The notes below the pieces were generated by a model that had not been told where the DNA came from, searched no databases, and saw only the letters and a list, made by a program, of their open reading frames with translations. From UHGV virus genome UHGV-0241329: 31,428 nt of DNA; one strand, given 5' to 3'. Below, one piece after another: positions 8,849 to 20,360 of the stretch. A program made the position numbers and the translations under genes. How positions within the stretch are numbered: the first letter of the stretch is position 1; the number at the start of each line of letters is the position of its first letter. Origin of the DNA: a virus.

Positions 8849-9124
8849 ATGTCGATGTACACAACCGCCCAGCTGCTGGCGGCAAATGAGCAGAAATTTA
8901 AGTTTGATCCGCTGTTTCTGCGTCTCTTTTTCCGTGAGAGCTATCCCTTCACCACGGAGAAAGTCTATCTCTCACAAATTCCTGGACTGGTAAACATGGC
9001 GCTGTACGTTTCGCCAATTGTTTCCGGTGAGGTTATCCGTTCCCGTGGCGGCTCCACCTCTGAATTTACGCCGGGTTATGTCAAGCCGAAGCACTTAGCA
9101 TGGCTTTCTGAGGCTTTCGTGTAG
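8849..9124 (+). pseudogene. E: Major capsid protein E, 5' fragment (about 82 codons) truncated by the insertion and fused to 9 foreign codons (LAWLSEAFV)
   Basis: MSMYTTAQLLAANEQKFKFDPLFLRLFFRESYPFTTEKVYLSQIPGLVNMALYVSPIVSGEVIRSRGGSTSEFTPGYVKPKH matches recalled lambda gpE N-terminus, then diverges at 9094. Confidence 0.9.
9084..9093. repeat. attL core, AGCCGAAGCA (left copy of 10-bp direct repeat)
   Basis: Identical 10-mer at 9084..9093 and 20351..20360, exactly where lambda E homology stops and resumes. Confidence 0.8.
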
Positions 9125-9203
9125 TTGCTGGTTTTTACACTTAATCTTTTGATAATAAAGAATAAGTTTATCTGGCGCTTTCACTGAATTTTCCTCGTTA
9201 TCT

Positions 9204-9245
9204 GTGTGTTGCAATCATCTCTGTATTGCAGCTTGTATTGCTTTT
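9204..9245. repeat. Putative integrase arm-type sites (TGTATTGCA-like repeats) in attL arm
   Basis: TGTTGCAA / TGTATTGCA / TGTATTGC at 9207..9241; same motif twice near attR (20253..20273). Confidence 0.45.
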
Positions 9246-9256
9246 TGGGGCTAAAA

Positions 9257-10492
9257 ATGGCTGGCGAGAACAAACTGAGCGACAAAGCGCTTAAAGGATA
9301 TCTGGGGAAACCCAGAGAAAAGCAGATCACCATTGCTGATGGAAAGGGGCTTTCTATTCGTGTGAGTACTAAAGGGGCTGTGAGCTTTGTTTTCTTCTAC
9401 AGGTTAGCAGGTGGCCGGGCTGCTCCGGTCTGGCTAACGTTGGGTAAATATCCTGATATGTCACTCAAATAGGCAAGGGAAAAGCGCGACGAGTGCCGTG
9501 GTTGGTTGGTTGACAAACGTGATCCGCGTATCCAGATTAAGATTCAGGCTGAAGAACGCTTAAAGCCGGTCACAGTGGAGGATGCACTAAATTACTGGTA
9601 TGAAAATTACTGTAAGGTGCGTCGTAAAACTCATGCTGTAACGCTTGGCAGATTTCGAAAGCATATCTTTCCCTATATCGGTCATTTGCCCGTAAATGAC
9701 ACTCACCTATATGAATGGCTGGACTGTTTTGACCGAATTAAACGTAATGCACCAGTTATGGCGGCGTATGTTTTTTCTGACACTAAATTAGCTCTTCGTT
9801 TTTGTCGGGTACGCCAGTACGCGACGTGTGATGCTTTAAAGGATTTGCGCATGAGTGATGTGGGGCAGATTGCAGGTAAGCGGGATCGGGTTCTGGATGA
9901 AGCCGAACTGGGCCAGCTCTGGAAGGCAATTTTTGTCGAGCCTGATTTAAAACTAATGTCTGAATACACGCGAAAAATGTTTGTGCTTTGTACAGTATTT
10001 GGATGTCGAATGAGTGAAGCCCGATTATCTGAATGGAGCGAATGGGATCTCGAAAGTTGGGTTTGGACTGTACCAAAAGATCACTCAAAAACTGGTGTTG
10101 AAATCGTCAGACCAGTACCTGAAATTCTACGACAGTGGGTAACGGATGTTCACGAAGAGACAAAACATACTGGTTATGTGCTGGGAAGTCTGCGAATTAG
10201 AGAAAGCGTAAGCAAGATTGGGGGGAAAATCGGTAAACGTTTGGGCCATGAAAAACAATGGTCACTACACGACCTTAGAAGAACGCTATCTACTCATCTA
10301 AGTGATCTCGGTGTTGAATTTTATGTAGTAGAACAACTGTTAGGCCATGCGCTACCTGGCGTGGCAGGTGTTTACAACAGGAGTAAGTTTATGGCTAAAA
10401 AACTGGATGCTCTGGAACTCTGGACTACATATCTCAATAGCATCGCAGCTGCTGATTCAAAAGTGACAATCCTCAAACAAAAGGCTGGTTAA
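9257..10492 (+). pseudogene. int: Tyrosine integrase (P4-like family) interrupted by in-frame amber codon TAG at 9470..9472
   Basis: Two same-frame ORFs (9206..9472 and 9506..10492) separated only by TAG; N-terminal arm-binding-like domain; C-terminal catalytic motifs HDLRRT and LLGH..GVAGVYNRS. Confidence 0.8.
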
Positions 10493-10493
10493 C

Positions 10494-10721
10494 ATGAAAA
10501 AAATGGCAATTGTTGATAAAAAGGGTCTGGAGTACATTCCTAACATTGACCGAATGATCCGTGAGAAAGAATGTCGGGAGCTAACCACTCTTGCGAACAG
10601 CACACGCTGGAAGCTGGAGAAGGAAGGAAAATTTCCTAAGCGGATCAAGATTGGCGCTACTGCGGTAGCTTATCGTCTCTCCGAAGTTCAGGCATGGATT
10701 AAGGGAGAATGGAGTAATTAA
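10494..10721 (+). CDS. alpA: AlpA-family phage transcriptional regulator / excisionase-like HTH protein
   Basis: 75-aa ORF immediately after int; sequence resembles CP4-57 AlpA-type HTH proteins (LSEVQAWIKG-like C-terminus). Confidence 0.7.
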   Translation: MKKMAIVDKKGLEYIPNIDRMIREKECRELTTLANSTRWKLEKEGKFPKRIKIGATAVAYRLSEVQAWIKGEWSN

Positions 10722-10739
10722 ATAATAAGGTATTTCGAT

Positions 10740-11561
10740 ATGACAATGTGTGTTATTTGGAAGTCAGTTGATGGAACTATTTATGCCGCCACAGATTCTC
10801 GACTGAGCTTTGAAGAAAAAAAGTTAGATCGTTGCGTTAAAATATCCCGAATCACATGTCTTTTACATGAGCCTAGTGATGCAGTAGATACAAGTAAGAT
10901 ACTTGTTGATAAGCGTGAGATTGCTACATTATTCTGTGGAGGCTTTACAAATGCCTATATCATCAAGGAGAGCCTTACTGAGATTTTAAATAAAATAGTT
11001 CTCATGAGGGAATACTCCGGTGTGCCCTTTTCGGAAATTATAGATATAGCGTTTTCCATTTATGAAGATACATCAAGAGATATGTTTGCATCATTAATGG
11101 ACCAACGATTTGGATGTGTTTTTTACATGATAAGTTACTGCCCTGTATATAAGGAAATGCAAGCATTTAAATTTGAATTCAAAATAAATGAAAGCGGTAT
11201 TAACTATTATAAATCTAAACTTTTTGAAGATCGTAACTATGAGGTTAATGGAAGTGGGGTGAGGTACTTGGAACAAAATCATCGTATTGAAGATCTAGTT
11301 AAAGAAGCTTATCAGAAGAATAAATACACACCACTTCTAGATATACTTGAGTCCGTAATTAATGATGACGACTGTGACTCTGTTGGAGGTGCAATGCAAT
11401 ACATTTCATGTAATAAAGATAGTCTAAAATTGTGTTGTCATATGTTATTTGAAGAAAATAATTATAAGTATATGAAAGCTGGGGTGGACTTAAATGAACT
11501 CAATGAGAAGTTTATACCTTCTGGTTTGTTTTTTGAGACAGATGCAATCATCAAAAGATAA
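10740..11561 (+). CDS. Hypothetical protein, AT-rich cargo gene
   Basis: 273-aa ORF, visibly AT-rich; no motif recognised; N-terminus MTMCVIW... gives only a faint hint of an N-terminal Cys nucleophile. Confidence 0.55.
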   Translation: MTMCVIWKSVDGTIYAATDSRLSFEEKKLDRCVKISRITCLLHEPSDAVDTSKILVDKREIATLFCGGFTNAYIIKESLTEILNKIVLMREYSGVPFSEIIDIAFSIYEDTSRDMFASLMDQRFGCVFYMISYCPVYKEMQAFKFEFKINESGINYYKSKLFEDRNYEVNGSGVRYLEQNHRIEDLVKEAYQKNKYTPLLDILESVINDDDCDSVGGAMQYISCNKDSLKLCCHMLFEENNYKYMKAGVDLNELNEKFIPSGLFFETDAIIKR

Positions 11562-11866
11562 ACGATAACCGACTTTGATTGTGATAATTTTATCAAGATT
11601 ATGATGAATGCTGCAGTATATCTAACATGCTGCAGTTAACTCAATTTGTATTATCGCTAATATTTTTAATAACAAGGATGTTTATTGCTTTTTTATTTGA
11701 GAGTGAACGTCTAACCATTGTTGTTCTTAGTTCTCATGGAGAGATTGGAGCTTAAAATACGCAATGTTTTGAAATCAGCGCAACTATATTCCGTAATTGT
11801 TCTTTGTCGTTCTTGCGTGGCACGGTGATACACCTCTCATGTCGGTTGTTTTTTTGAACGCAGAAA

Positions 11867-11896
11867 CATAAAACAAAGGCGACCGGGATGGTCGCC
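11867..11896 (-). terminator. Intrinsic terminator downstream of the SWIM gene
   Basis: GGCGACC-GGGAT-GGTCGCC perfect 7-bp stem; on reverse strand followed by TTTGTTTTAT. Confidence 0.6.
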
Positions 11897-11964
11897 AGTG
11901 GCATAACACTAAAATTGAGCGTATTCAGAATACCAAGTGTCGGCTGGTGGACAATGGAATCAGT

Positions 11965-12321
11965 TCAATATTTAGGTGGTTCAACAAGAGCGTTTATCAT
12001 TGCTCTCAAATTATCGCGAACACTTATCCAAGTCTGTTCTGCTCGTTCTAACTCATTAGTGTACAGCTTTAATGTTTTATCTATGCCATATGTGGCTATT
12101 AAATTTATAGCTTCTTGTAACTTTTCGGGATTATTCCTTCTTGGGGGAGTGAATATACCGCGGATTTTTCCGGTAATTAAAGCTTTACGGTGTCTACATA
12201 GAATACCTTTACTTCCTGCTGGACAATTACAAGTCATGATTAGCGAGCCAGAATCGTTTGATACAGTGACTATGTATACATCCAAACTACTGCTACTTGT
12301 TGCGAAGAATTCGTATTTCAT
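11965..12321 (-). CDS. Small SWIM-type zinc-finger protein
   Basis: 118-aa ORF with CNC-x9-CRH (CxCx(n)CxH) motif; co-oriented 28 bp downstream of RHH gene. Confidence 0.55.
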   Translation of the reverse strand: MKYEFFATSSSSLDVYIVTVSNDSGSLIMTCNCPAGSKGILCRHRKALITGKIRGIFTPPRRNNPEKLQEAINLIATYGIDKTLKLYTNELERAEQTWISVRDNLRAMINALVEPPKY

Positions 12322-12348
12322 GTGTTAGCTCCTTGACTTCAATTATTC

Positions 12349-12543
12349 TTATCCTTTTGGTTCAATACCGCGCCGTAGCAGCTCTTTGCGCCCTAACTCT
12401 TTAAGCCAGTTGGCAAGGCTTACCCCATCGTTACTGGCTTCGTTATCAAACTGCTCCTTCAATTCAGGAACTATGCGCATATGGAACGGTGGGGCCTTTC
12501 CTGTGCCTTTTTGTTTTTTATCGCGCTTAATAACCGTTGACAT
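12349..12543 (-). CDS. Ribbon-helix-helix (Arc/CopG-like) DNA-binding protein, candidate element repressor
   Basis: 64-aa ORF; FHMRIVPELKEQF beta-strand followed by helices; start codon overlaps a palindromic operator. Confidence 0.5.
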   Translation of the reverse strand: MSTVIKRDKKQKGTGKAPPFHMRIVPELKEQFDNEASNDGVSLANWLKELGRKELLRRGIEPKG

Positions 12544-12600
12544 GTGTACACCTATAGCGTTATGTTTTTATTCGATAGGTGTACACCTTAACATGTGTGC
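12541..12600. promoter_or_regulatory. Divergent control region with palindromic operators
   Basis: GTGTACACCTAT (12544..12555) and its inverted copy ATAGGTGTACAC (12575..12586), each containing palindrome GTGTACAC; ACATGTGT repeated; TTGACA at 12537..12542. Confidence 0.5.
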
Positions 12601-12878
12601 ATTTAAAAACGCAACGCCCCGCAGTGCGGGAACACATGCAGGGCGTCTAACCACCAACGATAGCAACAGTATCGAGGTAGCTATGAGAAATCATACCACA
12701 CACCCGCAAGGGCGGGACTCGCACAACCTGAATAAATTCACTTGGCGCTTTATCGCCCTGAGTGCGGCTAAACCGCGCATGCTTACCATCGTGGTCACCA
12801 GCGAGCAGGAAGACCGCCAGCAATCCCCAACTGGCTGCGTGATGATATTCGCCGCCCGTATTCGTCAGGAGGTGTGCC

Positions 12879-13103
12879 ATGAATGATCTTTATTTTAAAG
12901 TGCTGACACATGCTGAAAACGCGCTCGTTTGTGGCAAAAATATGCGAGAAATCTTATCAACCTGGCTTGATGGGACAACAAATGCGGAACACGATGAACG
13001 GGATGCTAATTTAGCTGGAGCGTTAATTACGTTACTTGATCCTGTCATCAAAGAGCTGGATGAAGCTATAAAAATACACGACCAGAGCTATACCGGAGAA
13101 TAA
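12879..13103 (+). CDS. Hypothetical small protein
   Basis: 74-aa ORF, first gene of the rightward operon leading to primase. Confidence 0.45.
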   Translation: MNDLYFKVLTHAENALVCGKNMREILSTWLDGTTNAEHDERDANLAGALITLLDPVIKELDEAIKIHDQSYTGE

Positions 13104-13106
13104 AAA

Positions 13107-13394
13107 ATGAAAAATAAATTTTCTGGCTTTATTGCCAGCGGTCAAACTCATTCAAAAATCAGCCTTGGGGATATTTTCAAAGACAGCTATGGCTATCGGG
13201 TAAAGATTATTTCGGTTGATGATCGTCGTGTCTCTTATTTGCGTGATGGTTATGATTTTGAATGTGTTATGCCGCGTCAGCAGTTCGAAAGAGATTTCAT
13301 TCTGGTAAAAAATTGCAAGACAGATAATCAGAGGCGTGCCGCAGGCTATATCCGTAAAATTCGGGCAATGTTAGTTGCCGGAGGTAACAAATGA
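13107..13394 (+). CDS. Hypothetical small protein
   Basis: 95-aa ORF; 3' end overlaps primase start (ATGA). Confidence 0.45.
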   Translation: MKNKFSGFIASGQTHSKISLGDIFKDSYGYRVKIISVDDRRVSYLRDGYDFECVMPRQQFERDFILVKNCKTDNQRRAAGYIRKIRAMLVAGGNK

Positions 13395-15211
13395 AACGTG
13401 CTCCGAACTTAAAATACCAACCGCGCGACAAAATGACGGAAGTCATCATTTTTGCTGGCAGTGATGCCTGGAGCCATGCAAAAGAATGGAATGAATGGGC
13501 AGGTAAGCATATTGCAGCAGATGATACACCACCAGTCATTCTGGGTACGGAACAACTGGAAAACCTGGATGATATGCAAATTATCGATGAAGGCCGTCAT
13601 TATGTGCGTGTTTATCGTGCCGGAAAGATTGCAGAGAAAAGTCTGACGAAGGTTGCGACATTACTTGCTATTGCAGGCGTAAAGGAAGCACGTTGTTACC
13701 GTAGCTTTGTTGATCGAGAGCCTGAAGACTGGACTCCGCGCCTTGTCGGCCTAAAAGCTGAAGCGGAGCATGGGGAAAGTCTGGTGATTGAACTGCCAGT
13801 GAAGAAGGCAGAGCGCAAAAATGACGAGCGTGCTTCATCTTTGGCGTTGAATCAGATGGGGGCCAGCCAGCGCGGTGAAGTTCTCCTTGCACATTACGGC
13901 GGTGAACTGGCAATCAATGCCGACTCTGACACCGTTCATCATTACAACGGCGTTGTATGGGAGCCGGTTCAGGATAAAGAGTTACAGCGTTCTATGGCGC
14001 AGATTTTCATTGATGCGGAGATCAGCTATTCGCAGAACGCTATTAAATCGGCGGTAGATACCATGAAGTTAAGTTTGCCTGTAATGGGGAATACAGCCCG
14101 TAACCTGATTGGATTCAGTAACGGGGTATTTGATACCAGAACTGGTAATTTTCGGGAGCATAACAAAAACGACTGGTTGTTAATTGCCAGTGAATTACCT
14201 TTCAGCCCACCAGCAGAGGGGGAAACGCTGGCAACACATGCGCCGAATTTCTGGAAGTGGTTGCGCCGTTCGGTGGCTGAGAATGACCGCAAGGCAGATC
14301 GCGTACTGGCGGCATTATTCATGGTGCTGGCGAACCGGTACGACTGGCAGTTATTCATTGAGGTAACAGGGCCGGGGGGAAGTGGTAAAAGTGTGATGGC
14401 GGAGATTTGCACCATGCTGGCGGGTAAGGCTAATACAGTATCAGCAAGCATGAAGGCGCTGGAAGATGCAAGGGAACGTGCGTTAGTGGTTGGCTTTTCG
14501 CTGATTATCATGCCGGATATGACCCGCTACGCTGGTGATGGGGCAGGGATTAAGGCCATTACAGGCGGTGACAAGGTGGCAATTGACCCGAAACACAAAG
14601 CCCCCTATTCAACGCGTATTCCGGCAGTAGTGCTGGCGGTTAACAATAACGCCATGTCATTCAGTGACCGCAGCGGGGGGATCTCACGTCGTCGGGTGAT
14701 ATTCAATTTTTCGGAAGTTGTACCGGAGAACGAACGCGATTCGATGCTGGCGGAAAAAATAGAAGGTGAGCTGGCGGTAGTGATTCGTCATCTGCTTACA
14801 AGGTTTGCTGATCAGGACGAAGCCAGACGCCTGTTATATGAGCAGCAGAAATCTGAAGAAGCACTGGCGATAAAGCGAGAGGGGGATTCGCTGGTGGACT
14901 TCTGCGGTTATCTCATGGCATCGGTAATGTGTGATGGCCTGTTAGTGGGTAATGCTGAAATTGTGCCATTCAGCCCACGCAGGTATCTCTATCATGCCTA
15001 TCTGGCTTATATGAGGGCACATGGGTTTGGTAAACCTGTAACACTGACGCGCTTCGGTAAAGATATGCCGGGGGCAATGGCGGAATATGGCAGGGAGTAT
15101 ATGAAACGGAAAACGAAGCACGGTTTGCGTTCAAACGTGACACTGACGGAGGAATCAGAAGACTGGATGCCATCATGTGTATCGGTCACTAATGACGATA
15201 GCAAAAATTAA
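13391..15211 (+). CDS. Primase-helicase replication protein (P4 alpha / PICI Pri-Rep-like)
   Basis: 606-aa ORF; Walker A EVTGPGGSGKS in C-terminal half; followed directly by iteron origin. Confidence 0.75.
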   Translation: MKRAPNLKYQPRDKMTEVIIFAGSDAWSHAKEWNEWAGKHIAADDTPPVILGTEQLENLDDMQIIDEGRHYVRVYRAGKIAEKSLTKVATLLAIAGVKEARCYRSFVDREPEDWTPRLVGLKAEAEHGESLVIELPVKKAERKNDERASSLALNQMGASQRGEVLLAHYGGELAINADSDTVHHYNGVVWEPVQDKELQRSMAQIFIDAEISYSQNAIKSAVDTMKLSLPVMGNTARNLIGFSNGVFDTRTGNFREHNKNDWLLIASELPFSPPAEGETLATHAPNFWKWLRRSVAENDRKADRVLAALFMVLANRYDWQLFIEVTGPGGSGKSVMAEICTMLAGKANTVSASMKALEDARERALVVGFSLIIMPDMTRYAGDGAGIKAITGGDKVAIDPKHKAPYSTRIPAVVLAVNNNAMSFSDRSGGISRRRVIFNFSEVVPENERDSMLAEKIEGELAVVIRHLLTRFADQDEARRLLYEQQKSEEALAIKREGDSLVDFCGYLMASVMCDGLLVGNAEIVPFSPRRYLYHAYLAYMRAHGFGKPVTLTRFGKDMPGAMAEYGREYMKRKTKHGLRSNVTLTEESEDWMPSCVSVTNDDSKN

Positions 15212-15220
15212 ACTTATGGA

Positions 15221-15455
15221 ATAACTGTTCACCACTGTTCACCCTGTCATAAATATCTTTTATATCAGTATATTATAGGGTGAACAGTTATTTATGAACT
15301 GTTCACCAAACTATTCACTGTTCACCTTTTTGATTGTTTATTGAGCTTCAAGGGTGAACAGTGGTGAACAGTTGGTGAATAGTTTTTGTGAAACTGTTCA
15401 CCCATTAACATTATGAATTAAAAGAGAAAATATCAAAAGGTGAACAGGTGAAGGG
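15221..15455. repeat. ori: Replication origin with iterons (TGTTCACC / GGTGAACA), at least 9 copies in both orientations
   Basis: CTGTTCACC at 15225 and 15235; GGTGAACAG at 15278, 15352, 15362, 15439; further copies at 15299, 15318, 15394; interspersed AT-rich stretches. Confidence 0.75.
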
Positions 15456-15498
15456 TTAAAACGCAAAAATTTTAATTTACTGCTGTGAGATAAAGCCT

Positions 15499-15744
15499 AT
15501 GACAGCGAAGCACACAAAAAAATCACAATCGCACGCCCTTGATTTGACGGAACACTGGTTAAGGGTGTCGATAAAAATCATCGACCGCAACGCCGGGGAA
15601 GGATACGCGAAAGCACATCCCGAACTGATTAGCGCATTCATGACAACGGCGGCTGCAAACTTTGCCACTCTGACCGAACGGGAGATTGCTGAAGCGGAGG
15701 AAGTGACAACAATCAATATTAAGTCCGGAGAGCAGGCAGCATGA
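15499..15744 (+). CDS. Hypothetical protein
   Basis: 81-aa ORF between ori and ssb; ATGA overlap with ssb. Confidence 0.45.
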   Translation: MTAKHTKKSQSHALDLTEHWLRVSIKIIDRNAGEGYAKAHPELISAFMTTAAANFATLTEREIAEAEEVTTINIKSGEQAA

Positions 15745-16190
15745 CGGCGCAAATATCAGTTTACGGGCGGTTGGTGGACGACCCGCAGACAAAACAGACC
15801 AGCAAGAGCACCCCCATGACGCTGGCACGTATGGCGGTATCACTGCCCTGCAGTCAGTCGGATGACGGTCAGGCGACGATGTGGTTATCTGTCCTGGCGT
15901 TTGGCAGACAAGCCGACGCGCTGGCAAAGCATCACAAAGGCGAACTCCTGAGCGTGGCGGGTAATATGCAGGTGAGCCAGTGGACTGGACAGAACGGTGA
16001 AACGCGGCAGGGCTGGCAGGTTATCGCAGACAGCGTAATCAGTGCGCGAACGGTGCGACCGGGCGGCAAAAAAGGTCAACAGGGTCAGGCTACTGACGCA
16101 CTGAACAGAGCAAAACAACAGGCAGATCAGCAAGGAAGCCATCCACCAGTGGGAGATAATGAGCAATGGGGAGATGATATTCCGTTTTAA
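15741..16190 (+). CDS. ssb: Single-stranded DNA-binding protein
   Basis: 149-aa ORF; Gly/Gln-rich linker and acidic C-terminal tail ...GDDIPF, typical of SSB. Confidence 0.8.
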   Translation: MTAQISVYGRLVDDPQTKQTSKSTPMTLARMAVSLPCSQSDDGQATMWLSVLAFGRQADALAKHHKGELLSVAGNMQVSQWTGQNGETRQGWQVIADSVISARTVRPGGKKGQQGQATDALNRAKQQADQQGSHPPVGDNEQWGDDIPF

Positions 16191-16402
16191 ATATTGCCAA
16201 TAAAAAAGGCCGGAAAAAAAATAAATTTTCCGGCATGCTACATAAATCCCGACCAAAGGGAGTGAAGATATTAACACTAATTATCCGCGCTGAAGTTGTT
16301 ATCCCAAAACTTTATACAACATTGCACTCGGTTGCATGTATTCGCATGATAAATATCGGTGATAGCATATATCCACAATTATTTTTAATGAATGCAAAGA
16401 GG

Positions 16403-17449
16403 ATGCGTATGGTTGATTTATATTCGCCTACCCAGCTTGTACAGGTGGTTAATGCTGTAGATGTACAAAAACAACTAAATGCGTTGTTTACCAGTTTGTT
16501 TTTTACTCGCTCGGTAATGTTTGAATCGCGCGATATTATTCTTGATACAATCGACGATCCAAATATCCCAATTGCAGCGTTTTGTTCTCCTATGGTGGGT
16601 AGTAAAGTTTCACGTGACGAAGGGTACGAATCAAAAACAATTCGTCCAGGCTATATGAAGCCGAAAAGCAGCATTGATCCAAATAAGTTAGCTGTGCGCC
16701 CTGCTGGTGTATCACCTGAGCAATACAATGCTTTTGGAGCGCGTAATATTAAAGTTAAACAGGCGATTGTAAATCAGGCTAAAGCTATTCGTGCACGTAT
16801 TGAATGGCTTGCCGTTCAGGCAATCACAACGGGGAAAAATATCATTGAGGGCGATGGTATTGAACGTTATGAGCTGGACTGGAATATTAAACCACAAAAT
16901 ATCATCACTCAGTCTGGCGGTGCTGAGTGGTCAGGTAAGGATAAAGAAACTTTTGATCCAAATGATGATATTGAGAGCTACGCAGAATTTAGTGAGGGCG
17001 TCACTAATATCATCATTATGGGCGGTAATGTATGGAAGAAATACCGTTCATTCAGAGCGATAAAAGAGGCTCTGGATACCCGTCGTGGTTCTAATTCCGA
17101 ACTGGAAACGGCCCTTAAAGACCTTGGTGATTCGGTGAGTTTTAAAGGGTATATGGGCGATGTTGCGATTGTTGTATACAGCGGGCGTTATACCGATGAG
17201 GACGGAACTGAAAAACATTTCCTTGATCCTGATTTGATGGTGCTTGGCAATACAGCTCTTCAGGGGATTGTCGCCTATGGCGGTATTCAGGATCCGGAGC
17301 TAATCCGAATGGGGCTGACTAAAGCCGAACTTGCACCGAAAAACTATATTGTGCCTGGTGATCCGGCTATTGAATATGTGCAGACACATTCAGCACCACA
17401 GCCAATACCGGCCCGCATCAATCGTTTTGTTACCGTTCGCATTGGCTAA
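16403..17449 (+). CDS. Major capsid protein, divergent homolog of lambda gpE, encoded by the element
   Basis: Aligns along its length with lambda gpE, e.g. ITQSGGAEWSGKDKETFDPNDDIESYA vs ITQSGGTEWSKRDKSTYDPTDDIEAYA, and LDTRRGSNSELETA identical; start uncertain among ATG 16388/16403/16409. Confidence 0.8.
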   Translation: MRMVDLYSPTQLVQVVNAVDVQKQLNALFTSLFFTRSVMFESRDIILDTIDDPNIPIAAFCSPMVGSKVSRDEGYESKTIRPGYMKPKSSIDPNKLAVRPAGVSPEQYNAFGARNIKVKQAIVNQAKAIRARIEWLAVQAITTGKNIIEGDGIERYELDWNIKPQNIITQSGGAEWSGKDKETFDPNDDIESYAEFSEGVTNIIIMGGNVWKKYRSFRAIKEALDTRRGSNSELETALKDLGDSVSFKGYMGDVAIVVYSGRYTDEDGTEKHFLDPDLMVLGNTALQGIVAYGGIQDPELIRMGLTKAELAPKNYIVPGDPAIEYVQTHSAPQPIPARINRFVTVRIG

Positions 17450-17458
17450 GGGGGAGCA

Positions 17459-17800
17459 ATGGCTACTCATTACACTGAACTCATGGCTGGCACTGAAGCA
17501 CTGGTGACTACGCTGGGGATATTTTCAGCTAATAAAGGGGTAATTCCTGCATTTACGCCACTGATGCAGGAAGATGCAACAGGTGCACTGGTGGTATGGG
17601 ATGGTTCGAGCGTAGGTAAAGCGGTTTATGTTTCCGCTGTACAAATCGACACCGCGAAAAAAACACAGGCTCAGGTCTATAAGACAGGTGTCTTAAATGT
17701 TGATGCTCTGAACTGGCCTGAGTCTGTAAAAGAACTGTCAGTAAAGATTGCAGCGTTTGTTGGCTCAGGTATTTCTGTTCAGCCGCTGGCTCGTGTGTAA
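17459..17800 (+). CDS. Head decoration protein, divergent homolog of lambda gpD
   Basis: 113 aa; LVVWDGSSVGKAVYVSAVQ...KTGVLNVDALNWPE...AAFVGSGISV parallels lambda gp[20 protein letters not shown]...[14 protein letters not shown]...[11 protein letters not shown]. Confidence 0.65.
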   Translation: MATHYTELMAGTEALVTTLGIFSANKGVIPAFTPLMQEDATGALVVWDGSSVGKAVYVSAVQIDTAKKTQAQVYKTGVLNVDALNWPESVKELSVKIAAFVGSGISVQPLARV

Positions 17801-17811
17801 AGGGGGATACA

Positions 17812-18195
17812 ATGCAGAATGATTACAATGACCTTAAGCCAATTGCCGAAATGATGTACCCGAATCCAGCTGTAGAGGAATTAAAAGCTATCGCTGACAA
17901 AATGTGTTTAAGCGAGCGCCTTGTTGATATGAATCAGGTGATGGAAATTACAACCCTGAGTCGGCGTACACTGCTAAACCTTGAGGCTAGTGGAGAGTTC
18001 CCGGAGCGTGTGCAGGTTACGGAAGGGCGTAAGGCCTGGTATTTAAGTGAAGTGATCGACTGGATAAATAATATTCCTCGCGCTTCTGAATATTGCCGCG
18101 TACCTGTCCCAAAAAAGCCAGATGCGGCGCTATGCCTCAAGATTGAGCGTGTACGCCGCAATGCACGGGATGGTCGCTATAAGCTGATTGGTTGA
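17812..18195 (+). CDS. HTH protein (AlpA-like DNA-binding segment) immediately upstream of element cos
   Basis: 127 aa; segment MNQVMEITTLSRRTLLNLEASGEFPERVQVTEGRKAWYLSEVIDWINN resembles AlpA/MerR-type HTH. Confidence 0.5.
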   Translation: MQNDYNDLKPIAEMMYPNPAVEELKAIADKMCLSERLVDMNQVMEITTLSRRTLLNLEASGEFPERVQVTEGRKAWYLSEVIDWINNIPRASEYCRVPVPKKPDAALCLKIERVRRNARDGRYKLIG

Positions 18196-18214
18196 TGAAA
18201 TTAGGGCCCGCTCT

Positions 18215-18425
18215 GGCTGGCGGGTCCTTTCTGGCGATCTGACAGGCTACGGGGCGTCAGGCGCGCAGATTCTTGCTATTTATGACAATTTTCTGCGATT
18301 TGCCGTTTCCGTTCTTCTTCCTCGTAACTTAGTGTTTTTATTAGAAATACCCTCTAAAAAGAAAGGAAATGACAGGTGCTGAAAACAGGCTTTTGGGTCT
18401 CCGTCATTTCCTTTCTCATTTTTAT
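18215..18425 (+). other. cos: Element cos site, homologous to prophage cos but with divergent cohesive-end sequence GGGCGTCAGGCG (18252..18263)
   Basis: Aligns with 2690..2900: cosQ-like GCGGGTCCTTTCTGGCGATCTGACAGGCTACG and cosB-like GTTTCCGTTCTTCTTC / AAAGAAAGGAAATGACAGGTGCTGAAA conserved; cohesive-end 12-mer differs at 5 of 12 positions. Confidence 0.8.
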
Positions 18426-18679
18426 CTAAAAGTAAGCATCGAGGCCACCCCAAATGCTTATAGAGGTTATTGTGTCACTATGCGTACTGTTCAGGATTTA
18501 AAGTAGCAAGACATCTAGTTGCTTGCAGTTTTGGCGAATGATGTGAGGTTCTGCTATAACAGATAATGTAACAAGTTACTGATATATTCTGTTATGGTTG
18601 ACTTTAAATTTTGTTGCTCCTTCAATGAATTATTGAGGGGTGAAAATTAGGCGTGATAAGAATCGATCACGCCTATTGT

Positions 18680-19996
18680 TTATCTTGAAGAAATTTTAGG
18701 CAGGCTTTTTAAAAATAAATCTTTATTTCTACTTGCATCAGTTAAAAGTGTTAGGAATATTTTATCTGTAGGAGTGCATGTGCTCTTGTTTAACAGTAAT
18801 TCACCAAGTTTCTGTAATCGAGAGAATTGCCCATCCTCTTGGATTCTGTGACGAAGTGTACTATCATTTTTAATAACATCAACAAATGCAGAAACCATGT
18901 TAATATCAAAGTGTTCAAACATTTCCAATATTAAAGGTGCAGCCCCATTTGAATAAAAATTCTTCCTTCCATACTGATAGCTGAAACCACGATGGCCAAC
19001 ATAAGTTTTTGTAATGGCTGAAACAAATTCAACAATATTATCTTCAGGGACGAAACTCGAGAATGGTAATAATTGGGTTACGATTTTTTCCTCTTCTGAC
19101 CAATTATCTAAAGACTCGGTGAGTTTATTAATGAGAGGCTCAATAATAACTTTTCGGGATGCAGGGCTAATATACATCAGTCCATCTACCAATAGTATGA
19201 ATTGTTGTGCCTTCTCTATCTTATTGTTGTTTCCTGAAACTAAATACTTGTCAAATTGTTGGCCGACTTTACGTCGGTCGTCTTTTGAAAGTAATGTCCA
19301 TAAAATAGGTGCGCAAAATTCAATGTTGTTTCTGAGTTCACTTGATATATTGGATGAGCAGTATGTGCCAAAAAAACGAGAGGATAATTCACTGATATAA
19401 ATTGCAGGTAGATCTGAAAAGGCTTGCTTAACTGCCAGGCTATTTTTATTAAATGTTGCCGAATCCATTTCTGAAAGATATGTAGATATATCTATGATGG
19501 CTGGTGGAAACTCTTTAGAAAGAACGTATTTATTACAATCATTAATCAGGTTCACTACTTTGATTAAATCAGGGTCGCTACTTTGTGGATGTCCACCAAA
19601 TAGATTCCTGGTTTCTCTAGCTTGTTGTAATAGTTTCTGACCTTCTCGATCGATAACTCCTATTTTAAATGCTCCATCTATTAAATCAAAGTCGCTCACA
19701 TAATCCTGAAAATCTTCATACGTTTTAATTTCTTTTTTTTGTTTACACTCTTTGTTGAATAGATCTAGGCTACGATGAATTATCTTTTGACGTAAATCAT
19801 CAACTACAGCATTCCAGTAAGCAGTGATGGCACTTCTATAACCTTTTACAGGAAGAACTCTTATTGCTTCTGAAATATATGGGCAGTCAACTACATCATG
19901 CCTCACAGTTGAGAGCGCAGTTTGTAACAATGTAACTTCTGTAGAGTCTAGTGGAGTTGGCTGCACTAAATGAGAACTTATCTCTGTACCCTTCAT
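18680..19996 (-). CDS. Hypothetical protein, AT-rich cargo gene at attR end
   Basis: 438-aa ORF on reverse strand, visibly AT-rich; no motif recognised; hairpin AGGCGTGAT-N8-ATCACGCCT at 18649..18674 just 3' of it. Confidence 0.55.
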   Translation of the reverse strand: MKGTEISSHLVQPTPLDSTEVTLLQTALSTVRHDVVDCPYISEAIRVLPVKGYRSAITAYWNAVVDDLRQKIIHRSLDLFNKECKQKKEIKTYEDFQDYVSDFDLIDGAFKIGVIDREGQKLLQQARETRNLFGGHPQSSDPDLIKVVNLINDCNKYVLSKEFPPAIIDISTYLSEMDSATFNKNSLAVKQAFSDLPAIYISELSSRFFGTYCSSNISSELRNNIEFCAPILWTLLSKDDRRKVGQQFDKYLVSGNNNKIEKAQQFILLVDGLMYISPASRKVIIEPLINKLTESLDNWSEEEKIVTQLLPFSSFVPEDNIVEFVSAITKTYVGHRGFSYQYGRKNFYSNGAAPLILEMFEHFDINMVSAFVDVIKNDSTLRHRIQEDGQFSRLQKLGELLLNKSTCTPTDKIFLTLLTDASRNKDLFLKSLPKISSR

Positions 19997-20350
19997 TTCA
20001 GGATTTTCCTATTCTTTTCCATTTTTCTACTCTATTGAATTTGAAAAAGATATCAAGTTCGTTCTTGCCAGTTTTAAGTGGAAAAATTGATGTTACCTTA
20101 TTGAGATAAGGCAGTTCTCTATAACCTATTGTTATTAATTATTTTTATTTTTTTTCCAATTCAGATGTTTAGGGCTAAGAAGTTAAGTGAGAGTTCACAG
20201 CAAAACTGCTTCTAGTTCCTCACCGAGGAGCAAAAGGTTAAGACAGCGTACTTTGTATTGCACAATGTATTGCAGAACCTTCTTTCGAAAGCTACAACAA
20301 TCAATTTTATATTGAAAATTCAATCATATCCTTTCGATATTGACTCATAT

Positions 20351-20360
20351 AGCCGAAGCA
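20351..20360. repeat. attR core, AGCCGAAGCA (right copy of 10-bp direct repeat)
   Basis: Identical to 9084..9093; lambda E homology resumes here. Confidence 0.8.

What the first reader, a model, noticed from the sequence alone, without database searches (positions are those of the whole stretch)
18680..19996. AT-rich 438-aa reverse-strand cargo gene between element cos and attR
This is the largest unknown ORF in the element. It is oppositely oriented, AT-rich, and flanked by a hairpin and the attR arm. Its end-of-island position is typical of anti-phage or competition cargo. No catalytic motif recognised.
Basis: inference. Interest (0 to 1): 0.65.

Follow-up and report, generated by a model that had tools for sequence, protein, structure and literature searches.

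The report
HEPN RNase defence candidate on satellite
The 438-aa reverse-strand gene is real and encodes an uncharacterised two-domain protein (a predicted HEPN ribonuclease head plus a helical-repeat tail) that sits in the anti-phage cargo slot of a phage satellite embedded in a prophage capsid gene, so it is a good but untested candidate for a single-gene phage-defence system.

Summary
ORF 18680-19996 (-) encodes 438 aa at 34.9% GC. A hairpin (18648-18675) follows its stop codon. It lies between a lambda-like cos region (18220-18423) and the attR core (20351-20360) of an 11-kb satellite. That satellite is a known type, an "11capE" helper-embedded PICI inserted in the capsid gene of a lambdoid prophage.

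In sister satellites the same slot holds TIR, PD-T4-2/NsnA-like and AbiJ genes. A 93%-identical copy lies beside the ppl defence gene on a Klebsiella plasmid.

The best reading is a lone HEPN RNase acting as an abortive-infection-type defence. Its architecture parallels DARNA (PD-T7-3), but it fails that family's sequence model (E 0.023). The function is inferred and no phenotype was tested. I rate it a new member of a known kind, of moderate interest.

The parts
18680..19996 (-). Gene for the 438-aa protein (stop codon 18680-18682); identical to WP_024046884.1 of E. coli ET665
   Evidence: ORF list; annotated as a hypothetical protein in ET665; 100% identical to the ET665 copy; PHROG 27609 full length, E 2.8e-189; homologs carry the precomputed Pfam tag PF27235 'AF_1680'
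19502..19996 (-). N-terminal HEPN domain (aa 1-165; the ordered helical core is about aa 39-159)
19589..19618 (-). Predicted catalytic motif RETRNLFGGH (R127, R130, N131, H136); Rx5H of the HEPN type
   Evidence: Translation; R130, G135, H136 and P137 invariant and N131 in 118 of 120 close homologs; Rx4-6H present in 57/62 distant full-length representatives
18683..19489 (-). C-terminal all-helical solenoid domain (aa 170-438), the proposed sensor or regulatory module
18648..18675 (.). G+C-rich hairpin just downstream of the stop codon; likely a terminator separating the cargo gene from the cos region
   Evidence: Terminator scan; sequence
20029..20056 (-). Sigma-70-like promoter candidate (TTGATA-16-TAGAGT), 33-60 nt upstream of the ATG
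   Evidence: Consensus scan, 9 of 12 matches; the number of such sites in the region is no higher than in shuffles, so this is only a candidate
20003..20042 (.). Weak 18-nt x 2.2 tandem repeat in the 5' leader/promoter region; significance unknown
   Evidence: TRF score 45, 77% matches
18220..18423 (+). Satellite cos-like region, the left border of the cargo slot
   Evidence: 82.6% identity over 207 bp to the prophage cos region 2684-2888; homology to sister satellites ends at about 18285-18426
20351..20360 (.). attR core (AGCCGAAGCA), the right border of the cargo slot; its partner attL core is at 9084-9093
   Evidence: These are the only two copies in the window, and they lie exactly at the capsid-gene break; this matches the 10-bp identity block described for 11capE (PMC10111431)
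9094..20350 (+). Host element: an 11capE-type helper-embedded PICI (int, alpA, variable zone, primase, SSB, capsid, decoration, alpA-like, cos, cargo)
   Evidence: Annotation of the 99.1%-identical ET665 locus; literature description

Best explanation
The gene encodes a stand-alone, two-domain anti-phage effector of the abortive-infection type, carried as 3'-end cargo by a helper-embedded PICI satellite. It is transcribed from its own promoter, opposite to the satellite and helper late genes, so it is probably made in the lysogen. The N-terminal HEPN domain (Rx5H: R130, N131, H136) is a metal-independent endoribonuclease that needs homodimerisation to form a composite active site. The C-terminal ARM/HEAT-like solenoid (aa ~170-438) keeps it inactive and acts as the sensor for an infection cue. 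On activation it cuts cellular and/or phage RNA (tRNA is the likeliest target, by analogy with DARNA, PrrC and RloC), translation stops and the infecting phage fails to propagate. That protects the clonal population and therefore the satellite-prophage composite. Shown here by computation: the gene is real; the HEPN fold; motif invariance; the domain boundary and the portability of the C-terminal domain; lone-gene status; residence in a hotspot. Inferred: RNase activity, dimerisation, the trigger, the RNA target, and the defence phenotype itself.
Confidence: 0.6

Rival explanations
1. It is a true but very divergent member of the DARNA (PD-T7-3) family and works the same way: it forms a large oligomer (a dodecamer in DARNA), its C-terminal domain binds ssDNA presented by phage SSB, and the HEPN domain then cuts tRNA anticodon loops.
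Against: The hit is only 11.9 bits at E 0.023 and covers part of the HEPN domain only. None of 40 other superfamily members hits the PD-T7-3 model. The spacing is Rx5H or Rx6H rather than Rx4H in 119/120 close homologs. No DARNA sequence or coordinates could be obtained for a direct comparison. Solenoid similarity is generic.
Confidence: 0.15
2. It is the toxin of an addiction (toxin-antitoxin) module that stabilises the satellite or plasmid carrying it, neutralised by an unrecognised small protein or RNA antitoxin, and has no role in phage defence.
For: HEPN RNases are common toxins (HepT/MntA; the AbiF-type with an RNA antitoxin is mentioned). The family is frequent on plasmids (86 records) and lies near other toxin-antitoxin genes. 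There is a weak 18-nt x 2.2 repeat in the leader.
Against: No MNT or other conserved neighbour appears in more than 10 independent contexts. No Rfam family matches, and the repeat is short and weak. A 270-residue conserved solenoid domain is not expected for a simple toxin. The slot it occupies holds defence genes in sister elements.
Confidence: 0.08
3. It acts in the satellite's own life cycle or in satellite-helper conflict. For example, it could cut helper or competitor transcripts after induction to favour satellite packaging, rather than defending the cell against unrelated phages.
For: It sits in a satellite embedded in its helper's capsid gene, next to cos. PICIs are known to interfere with helpers (PMC8989297, listed).
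Against: Only 12 of 403 genomes with this satellite backbone carry it, so it is dispensable for the satellite life cycle. The same protein family occurs outside satellites, on plasmids and as a lone chromosomal gene in Xanthomonas, Campylobacterota and others. It is transcribed against the late operon.
Confidence: 0.08
4. It is a non-defence protein: a HEPN-fold RNA-binding, regulatory or housekeeping RNA-processing factor, or a decaying remnant.
Against: Length is strictly conserved (~430-440 aa), identity is 51-59% across phyla and the catalytic motif is invariant, which argues against decay. The gene is identical in two strains whose flanking prophage differs at more than 200 positions. Presence in only 12 of 5426 E. 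coli genomes and carriage on mobile elements argue against housekeeping.
Confidence: 0.07

Closest known systems
DARNA (PD-T7-3), the ssDNA-activated HEPN tRNA anticodon nuclease of E. coli ECOR30 (bioRxiv 10.64898/2026.02.22.705581; Vassallo et al. 2022, PMC9519451)
   Same: Single-gene system of similar size (456 against 438 aa). N-terminal HEPN domain and C-terminal all-helical solenoid, with the boundary at about residue 160-170. Csm6 6tug is a shared structural neighbour of the HEPN domain. The catalytic His sits at the start of a loop following the Arg-bearing helix. It is the only (marginal) PADLOC hit.
   Different: It fails the PD-T7-3 sequence model (E 0.023, 11.9 bits, partial), and none of its relatives hit it. 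Spacing is Rx5H rather than Rx4H. It belongs to its own family (PF27235 'AF_1680', PHROG 27609). Oligomeric state, trigger and RNA target are unknown. No direct structural superposition was possible.
Other HEPN-based defence cargo in the same satellite slot: the PD-T4-2/NsnA-like DUF262+HEPN pair and AbiJ
   Same: They occupy the identical cos-to-attR position in sister 11capE-type PICIs, are mostly on the reverse strand, and carry a HEPN effector.
   Different: These are either two-gene systems or have the HEPN domain at the C-terminus (AbiJ). There is no sequence similarity to the 438-aa protein, and none has the solenoid domain.
HepT/MntA-type HEPN toxins and minimal HEPN proteins (e.g. 5yep, 7ae2, 2hsb)
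   Different: Those are ~120-140-aa proteins paired with an MNT antitoxin. Here there is no partner gene, and a 270-aa solenoid is fused to the HEPN domain.
PADLOC candidate PDC-S50 (through chimera P0188)
   Same: P0188 joins a PDC-S50-type N-terminal domain (E 1.6e-31) to a C-terminal domain homologous to aa 169-428 of this protein (E 3e-18).
   Different: The N-terminal domain differs (not HEPN, no Pfam match). PDC-S50 is itself only a computational candidate.
11capE helper-embedded PICI (Tommasini, Mageeney & Williams 2023, PMC10111431), the host element
   Same: A 10-bp identity block within the lambda-E-like capsid gene, the same gene order, its own capsid homolog, and a cos region shared with the helper.
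   Different: That paper did not analyse the reverse-strand 'hypothetical' cargo or a defence role. In this window the integrase also carries a premature stop.

Membership tests
HEPN superfamily | Four-helix up-and-down HEPN fold | tested here: met
HEPN superfamily | Conserved Rx4-6H motif | tested here: met
   R130-NLFGG-H136; present in 120/120 close homologs and 57/62 distant representatives
HEPN superfamily | Match to a curated HEPN sequence model | tested here: not met
   No HEPN family in Pfam-A or NCBIfam for this protein or 40 relatives; only a weak PDB sequence hit to 'Dandelion-hepn', E 0.037
HEPN superfamily | Metal-independent endoribonuclease activity at a dimer interface | not testable with these tools
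   Needs biochemistry or a multimer model; model coordinates are not exposed
PD-T7-3 / DARNA | Significant full-length match to the PADLOC PD-T7-3 model (PDLC04108) | tested here: not met
   E 0.023, 11.9 bits, aa 40-132 only; 0 of 40 other superfamily members match
PD-T7-3 / DARNA | N-terminal HEPN plus C-terminal helical (Pds5-like) domain, single gene | tested here: met
   Domains aa ~1-165 and ~170-438, against DARNA 1-159 and 160-456; lone gene in all contexts
PD-T7-3 / DARNA | Rx4H catalytic spacing (R117x4H122) | tested here: not met
   Rx5H here; spacing x5 in 100, x6 in 19 and x4 in 1 of 120 close homologs. All are within the HEPN range, so this is a minor difference.
PD-T7-3 / DARNA | Structural superposition on DARNA (PDB 9tra, 9trc, 9trd, 9tre) | not testable with these tools
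PD-T7-3 / DARNA | Dodecamer, activation by ssDNA presented by phage SSB, tRNA anticodon cleavage | not testable with these tools
   Experimental properties
PF27235 'AF_1680' / PHROG 27609 (uncharacterised family) | Full-length sequence match | tested here: met
   PHROG 27609 E 2.8e-189 over aa 1-438; homologs of 81-93% identity carry the precomputed PF27235 tag. The model itself is not in the local Pfam copy.
PICI 3'-end immune/accessory hotspot cargo | Located between the packaging/cos region and attR of a PICI | tested here: met
   cos-like region 18220-18423, gene 18680-19996, attR core 20351-20360
PICI 3'-end immune/accessory hotspot cargo | Slot content varies among sister elements and includes recognised defence genes | tested here: met
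   Six alternative contents in 10 sampled capE-embedded elements, three of them matching PADLOC families (TIR, NsnA/PD-T4-2, AbiJ)
PICI 3'-end immune/accessory hotspot cargo | Confers phage resistance | not testable with these tools
   Needs plaque and infection assays
HEPN toxin-antitoxin modules (HepT/MntA; RNA-antitoxin types) | Adjacent cognate antitoxin gene | tested here: not met
   No MNT or any other conserved neighbour across E. coli, Cronobacter, Xanthomonas, Klebsiella plasmid, Campylobacterota and metagenomic contexts
HEPN toxin-antitoxin modules (HepT/MntA; RNA-antitoxin types) | Upstream repeat array encoding an RNA antitoxin | tested here: inconclusive
   Only an 18-nt x 2.2 repeat of 77% identity at 20003-20042; no Rfam match
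11capE-type helper-embedded PICI (host element) | 10-bp attL/attR identity block inside a lambda-E-like capsid gene; int-alpA...pri...capsid order; cos shared with the helper | tested here: met
   compared with the description in PMC10111431

The most novel reading that the evidence does not exclude
The family is an independent, DARNA-like sensor-RNase whose solenoid is a portable infection-sensing module, shared with at least one other effector type (the PDC-S50-type chimera P0188), that recognises a trigger not yet described. In a helper-embedded satellite that also encodes its own SSB (15741-16190), it might tell the helper or satellite replication machinery apart from that of competing phages, so that the satellite polices which phages may replicate in its host.
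Probability: 0.12. Interest if true: 0.7.

Novelty: new member of a known kind. Interest (0 to 1): 0.45.

Why it matters
If the gene protects against phages, it would turn a widespread uncharacterised family into a new single-gene HEPN defence system. That family has hundreds of clusters across Gammaproteobacteria, Campylobacterota, Bacteroidota-like metagenomic lineages, Firmicutes plasmids and others; it is tagged Pfam PF27235 and PHROG 27609 and is absent from PADLOC v2. It would also give a second, sequence-unrelated example of the DARNA architecture, a HEPN head with a helical sensor tail. That would help show which features of the design are general, such as an occluded active site, oligomer-gated activation and nucleic-acid sensing. 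The analysis further shows that helper-embedded PICIs, so far described only for their integration biology, have a 3' defence hotspot like those of P4 and classical PICIs. That hotspot is a ready place to look for further unknown systems, for example the 311-aa and DUF3892-containing cargo sets seen in sister elements.

Tried and rejected
- Pfam-A and NCBIfam scans of the protein and 40 relatives gave no meaningful family.
- PADLOC on 30 distant relatives, run to bridge to PD-T7-3, gave no bridge.
- PDB sequence searches with both profiles gave nothing significant and no DARNA entry.
- Foldseek against PDB was dominated by generic solenoids, with E >= 0.015. Foldseek against viral structures found nothing. 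The AFDB library was unavailable.
- tblastn against 50,697 phage genomes gave no match.
- I tried to obtain the DARNA sequence. I found the accession RCP48690.1 and PDB ids 9tra-9tre, but no sequence or coordinates are reachable with these tools and the preprint supplements are not held. A direct comparison was therefore not possible.
- My guess that the N-terminus of P0188 is Schlafen/AlbA_2-like was not supported: no Pfam match, and no mention of PDC-S50 in the Schlafen paper.
- The exact lambda cosN search in the element was negative.
- I first misread the integrase as frameshifted. It is a nonsense codon.
- Literature searches for PF27235, AF_1680, WP_024046884 and Dandelion-HEPN returned nothing relevant.
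- Rfam and tandem-repeat scans for an RNA antitoxin found nothing convincing.

Full report
**1. The observation**

The ORF exists exactly as described: 18680..19996, minus strand, ATG start, 438 aa. Its GC content is 34.9% (26% at third codon positions). The rest of the element is at 44% and the flanking prophage at 53-58%. A 10-bp-stem hairpin at 18648-18675 lies 5 nt beyond the stop codon.

But blastn shows that 18220-18423 is 82.6% identical over 207 bp (E 1e-47) to the prophage cos region at 2684-2888, with a diverged cosN (GGGCGTCAGGCG).

The attR claim also holds. The 10-bp repeat AGCCGAAGCA occurs only at 9084-9093 and 20351-20360. Those are the exact points where a lambda-E-like capsid gene is broken, between ...PGYVKPKH and EVNPQM....

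The ORF is a real gene. It has 858 homologs at E <= 1e-3 in one database and 526 cluster representatives in another.

**2. The surroundings**

The best annotated match is E. coli ET665, 99.1% identical over 27 kb. There a lambdoid prophage head-tail module (terminase, portal, S49 protease, decoration protein) is interrupted inside its major capsid gene by an ~11-kb element. The element encodes an integrase, AlpA, a variable zone, a primase, an SSB, its own capsid and decoration homologs, a second AlpA-like regulator, the cos-like region, and finally the 438-aa gene on the opposite strand.

This is the "11capE" helper-embedded PICI (HE-PICI) described by Tommasini, Mageeney and Williams (PMC10111431). 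That element has the same 10-bp identity block in capsid gene E, its own capsid homolog, and a cos region shared with the helper. The host element is therefore already known. That paper did not analyse the reverse-strand "hypothetical" cargo.

**3. The protein**

Sequence libraries say little. Pfam-A and NCBIfam give nothing. PHROG 27609, of unknown function, matches full length at E 2.8e-189. Homologs carry a precomputed Pfam tag, PF27235 "AF_1680", that is newer than the local Pfam copy. PADLOC gives only a marginal hit to PD-T7-3: E 0.023, aa 40-132 against profile positions 21-117.

Close family members are all ~430-440 aa and 51-59% identical across Campylobacterota, Xanthomonas, Stenotrophomonas, Cronobacter and many metagenomic lineages.

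RETRNLFGGH (aa 127-136, nt 19589-19618) is a HEPN-type Rx5H with Asn after the Arg. R130 and H136 are present in 120/120 close homologs. An Rx4-6H is present in 57/62 distant full-length representatives. Across that wider superfamily (19-26% identity), R130, N131, H136, W61, R69, W233 and E302 are almost the only conserved residues.

So the protein has an N-terminal HEPN domain (aa ~1-165) and a C-terminal solenoid (aa ~170-438).

**4. The C-terminal domain is a portable module**

One distant representative, P0188 (453 aa), aligns to this protein only over aa 169-428 (BLASTP E 3e-18). Its first 167 residues match the PADLOC candidate PDC-S50 instead (E 1.6e-31). The break coincides with the structural domain boundary.

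Pairing one conserved domain with alternative N-terminal domains is typical of defence proteins that join a sensor to exchangeable effectors. I treat this as supporting a sensor or regulatory role for the solenoid. That role is an inference.

**5. The genomic position is a defence hotspot**

The backbone just upstream (decoration gene, AlpA, cos; 17459-18600) occurs in 403 of 5426 complete E. coli genomes. The 438-aa gene occurs in only 12. Homology to sister elements stops at ~18285-18426, just past the cos region.

In ten sampled capE-embedded sister elements, the cos-to-attR slot holds six different contents:
- this gene (the window and ET665)
- a TIR protein (22KM0354; PADLOC Aga_TIR 1.6e-17)
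- a DUF262+HEPN pair (G12, L1PEag1; NsnA 6e-59, PD-T4-2_A 1.9e-38, PD-T4-2_B 2e-4)
- an AbiJ homolog (C 237-04; 2.2e-21; a similar "abortive infection family protein" is annotated in RM14723)
- small hypotheticals plus DUF3892 (1218KP, 13E0767)
- a 311-aa unknown protein (EC-10)

Most of these are on the reverse strand. [quoted passage not shown]

Contexts outside E. coli agree:
- An 81%-identical copy ends a fis-integrated island carrying TerL, TerS, portal, protease and capsid genes in Cronobacter.
- A 93%-identical copy lies beside the annotated anti-phage gene ppl, a P-loop NTPase, a Fic protein and a DUF4041 protein on a Klebsiella variicola plasmid.
- Distant homologs sit on 86 plasmids among toxin-antitoxin and recombinase genes.
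- Chromosomal copies are lone genes next to IS elements, toxin-antitoxin pairs or a TIR/beta-propeller protein, although two contexts look ordinary.

No neighbouring gene is conserved anywhere.

**6. Mechanism**

The best-supported reading is a single-protein, abortive-infection-type defence. The gene would be transcribed from its own promoter, for which TTGATA-16-TAGAGT at 20029-20056 is only a candidate. The hairpin would insulate it from the cos region. The HEPN domains would dimerise to form an RNase site. The solenoid would hold that site inactive until an infection cue arrives. RNA cleavage, most likely of tRNA, would then stop translation. The fold, motif, modularity and hotspot residence are shown computationally. 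Catalysis, dimerisation, trigger, target and phenotype are inferred. I put this at 0.6.

**7. Closest known system**

Membership is a separate question, and the sequence test is not met. The PD-T7-3 model scores 11.9 bits on part of the HEPN domain only, none of 40 relatives hits it, and the spacing is Rx5H or Rx6H. I could not obtain the DARNA sequence or coordinates, since 9tra-9tre are absent from the PDB copies and the supplements are not held. Whether the two are remote homologs or convergent stays open. I give true DARNA membership 0.15.

**8. Other rivals**

- A toxin-antitoxin addiction toxin is unlikely (0.08). There is no partner gene in more than 10 contexts, no Rfam hit, and only a weak 18-nt x 2.2 repeat upstream.
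- A role in the satellite's own life cycle is unlikely (0.08). Only 12 of 403 backbones carry the gene, and the family lives outside satellites.
- A non-defence or decaying gene is unlikely (0.07). The motif is invariant, the length is conserved, and the gene is 100% identical in two strains whose flanking prophage differs at more than 200 sites.

**9. Verdict**

The statement that there is no catalytic motif is corrected. The host satellite type is already known. The protein family is uncharacterised and absent from PADLOC v2 and from the literature I could search. I classify it as a new member of a known kind, a HEPN sensor-RNase defence protein, and rate its interest as moderate (0.45). It is a clean and widespread candidate that is easy to test, but not a surprising one.

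Noticed in passing
window 9084-20360: The whole ~11.3-kb element is a satellite (an 11capE-type helper-embedded PICI) inserted inside the major capsid gene of a lambda-like prophage. The helper cannot make its capsid protein until the satellite excises. This type is already described in PMC10111431.
   Followed up: yes
window 9257-10492 (stop at 9470-9472): The satellite integrase carries a premature stop (Gln72 to TAG) in this window but is intact (411 aa) in the 99.1%-identical ET665 copy. If real, the satellite here may be unable to excise, which would leave the helper prophage's capsid gene permanently split.
   Followed up: partly
window 10740-12330: There is a second AT-rich variable zone (GC 0.32-0.41) after int/alpA. 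It holds a 273-aa protein with no Pfam or PADLOC match (10740-11561, +) and a 118-aa SWIM zinc-finger protein (11965-12321, -; weak PADLOC PDC-S62, 1e-4). In sister element EC-10 the same zone holds a protein annotated 'putative phage abortive infection protein' (weak AbiC/AbiP hits). This may be a 5' cargo slot.
   Followed up: partly
window 15741-16190: The satellite encodes its own single-stranded DNA-binding protein. Since DARNA is triggered by ssDNA presented by phage SSBs, a satellite SSB sitting next to a DARNA-like cargo gene could matter for self/non-self discrimination. This is pure speculation.
   Followed up: no
window 15214-15402: A cluster of repeated and inverted TGAACTGTTCACC-type motifs (4-5 copies, including a 29-nt palindromic unit) lies just downstream of the primase gene. 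This is where PICI replication origins are reported, so they are probably ori iterons.
   Followed up: no
window 18252-18263 vs 2716-2727: The satellite cos region is 82.6% identical to the helper's, but the cosN 12-mer itself differs at 6 of 12 positions (GGGCGTCAGGCG against GGGCGGCGACCT). It is unclear how the helper terminase would nick it.
   Followed up: partly
L016 (E. coli APEC O2-211) and L017/L027 (RM13322, 1919D62): Sister satellites with the same capsid-decoration-AlpA backbone sit in a prophage portal gene or next to chromosomal clpS. Those copies carry a terminase small subunit gene after the AlpA-like gene, and no large reverse-strand cargo is annotated between it and the element end.
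   Followed up: partly
P0188 (metagenomic protein, 453 aa): A natural chimera: a PDC-S50-type N-terminal domain (PADLOC 1.6e-31) is fused to the C-terminal solenoid of this family (E 3e-18). This is evidence that the solenoid is an exchangeable module.
   Followed up: yes
P0168, P0193 (distant superfamily members, 456 and 464 aa): These full-length relatives have lost the Rx4-6H motif (LISGYLKTAKF and LVMGYAQSDRF at the aligned position). They are possibly catalytically dead HEPN variants.
   Followed up: no
window 16409-17449 vs L001 12010-13050: The satellite's own capsid homolog is annotated as a pseudogene with an internal stop in ET665, but it lies within an uninterrupted ORF (16235-17449) in this window. 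The two copies differ at one base in that kilobase.
   Followed up: partly
L011 14791-15726 (E. coli EC-10); L014 and L026 cargo slots: Sister-element cargo with no PADLOC or Pfam match occupies the same defence slot: a 311-aa protein in EC-10, and a set of small proteins plus DUF3892 in the other two. These are further unknown candidates.
   Followed up: partly
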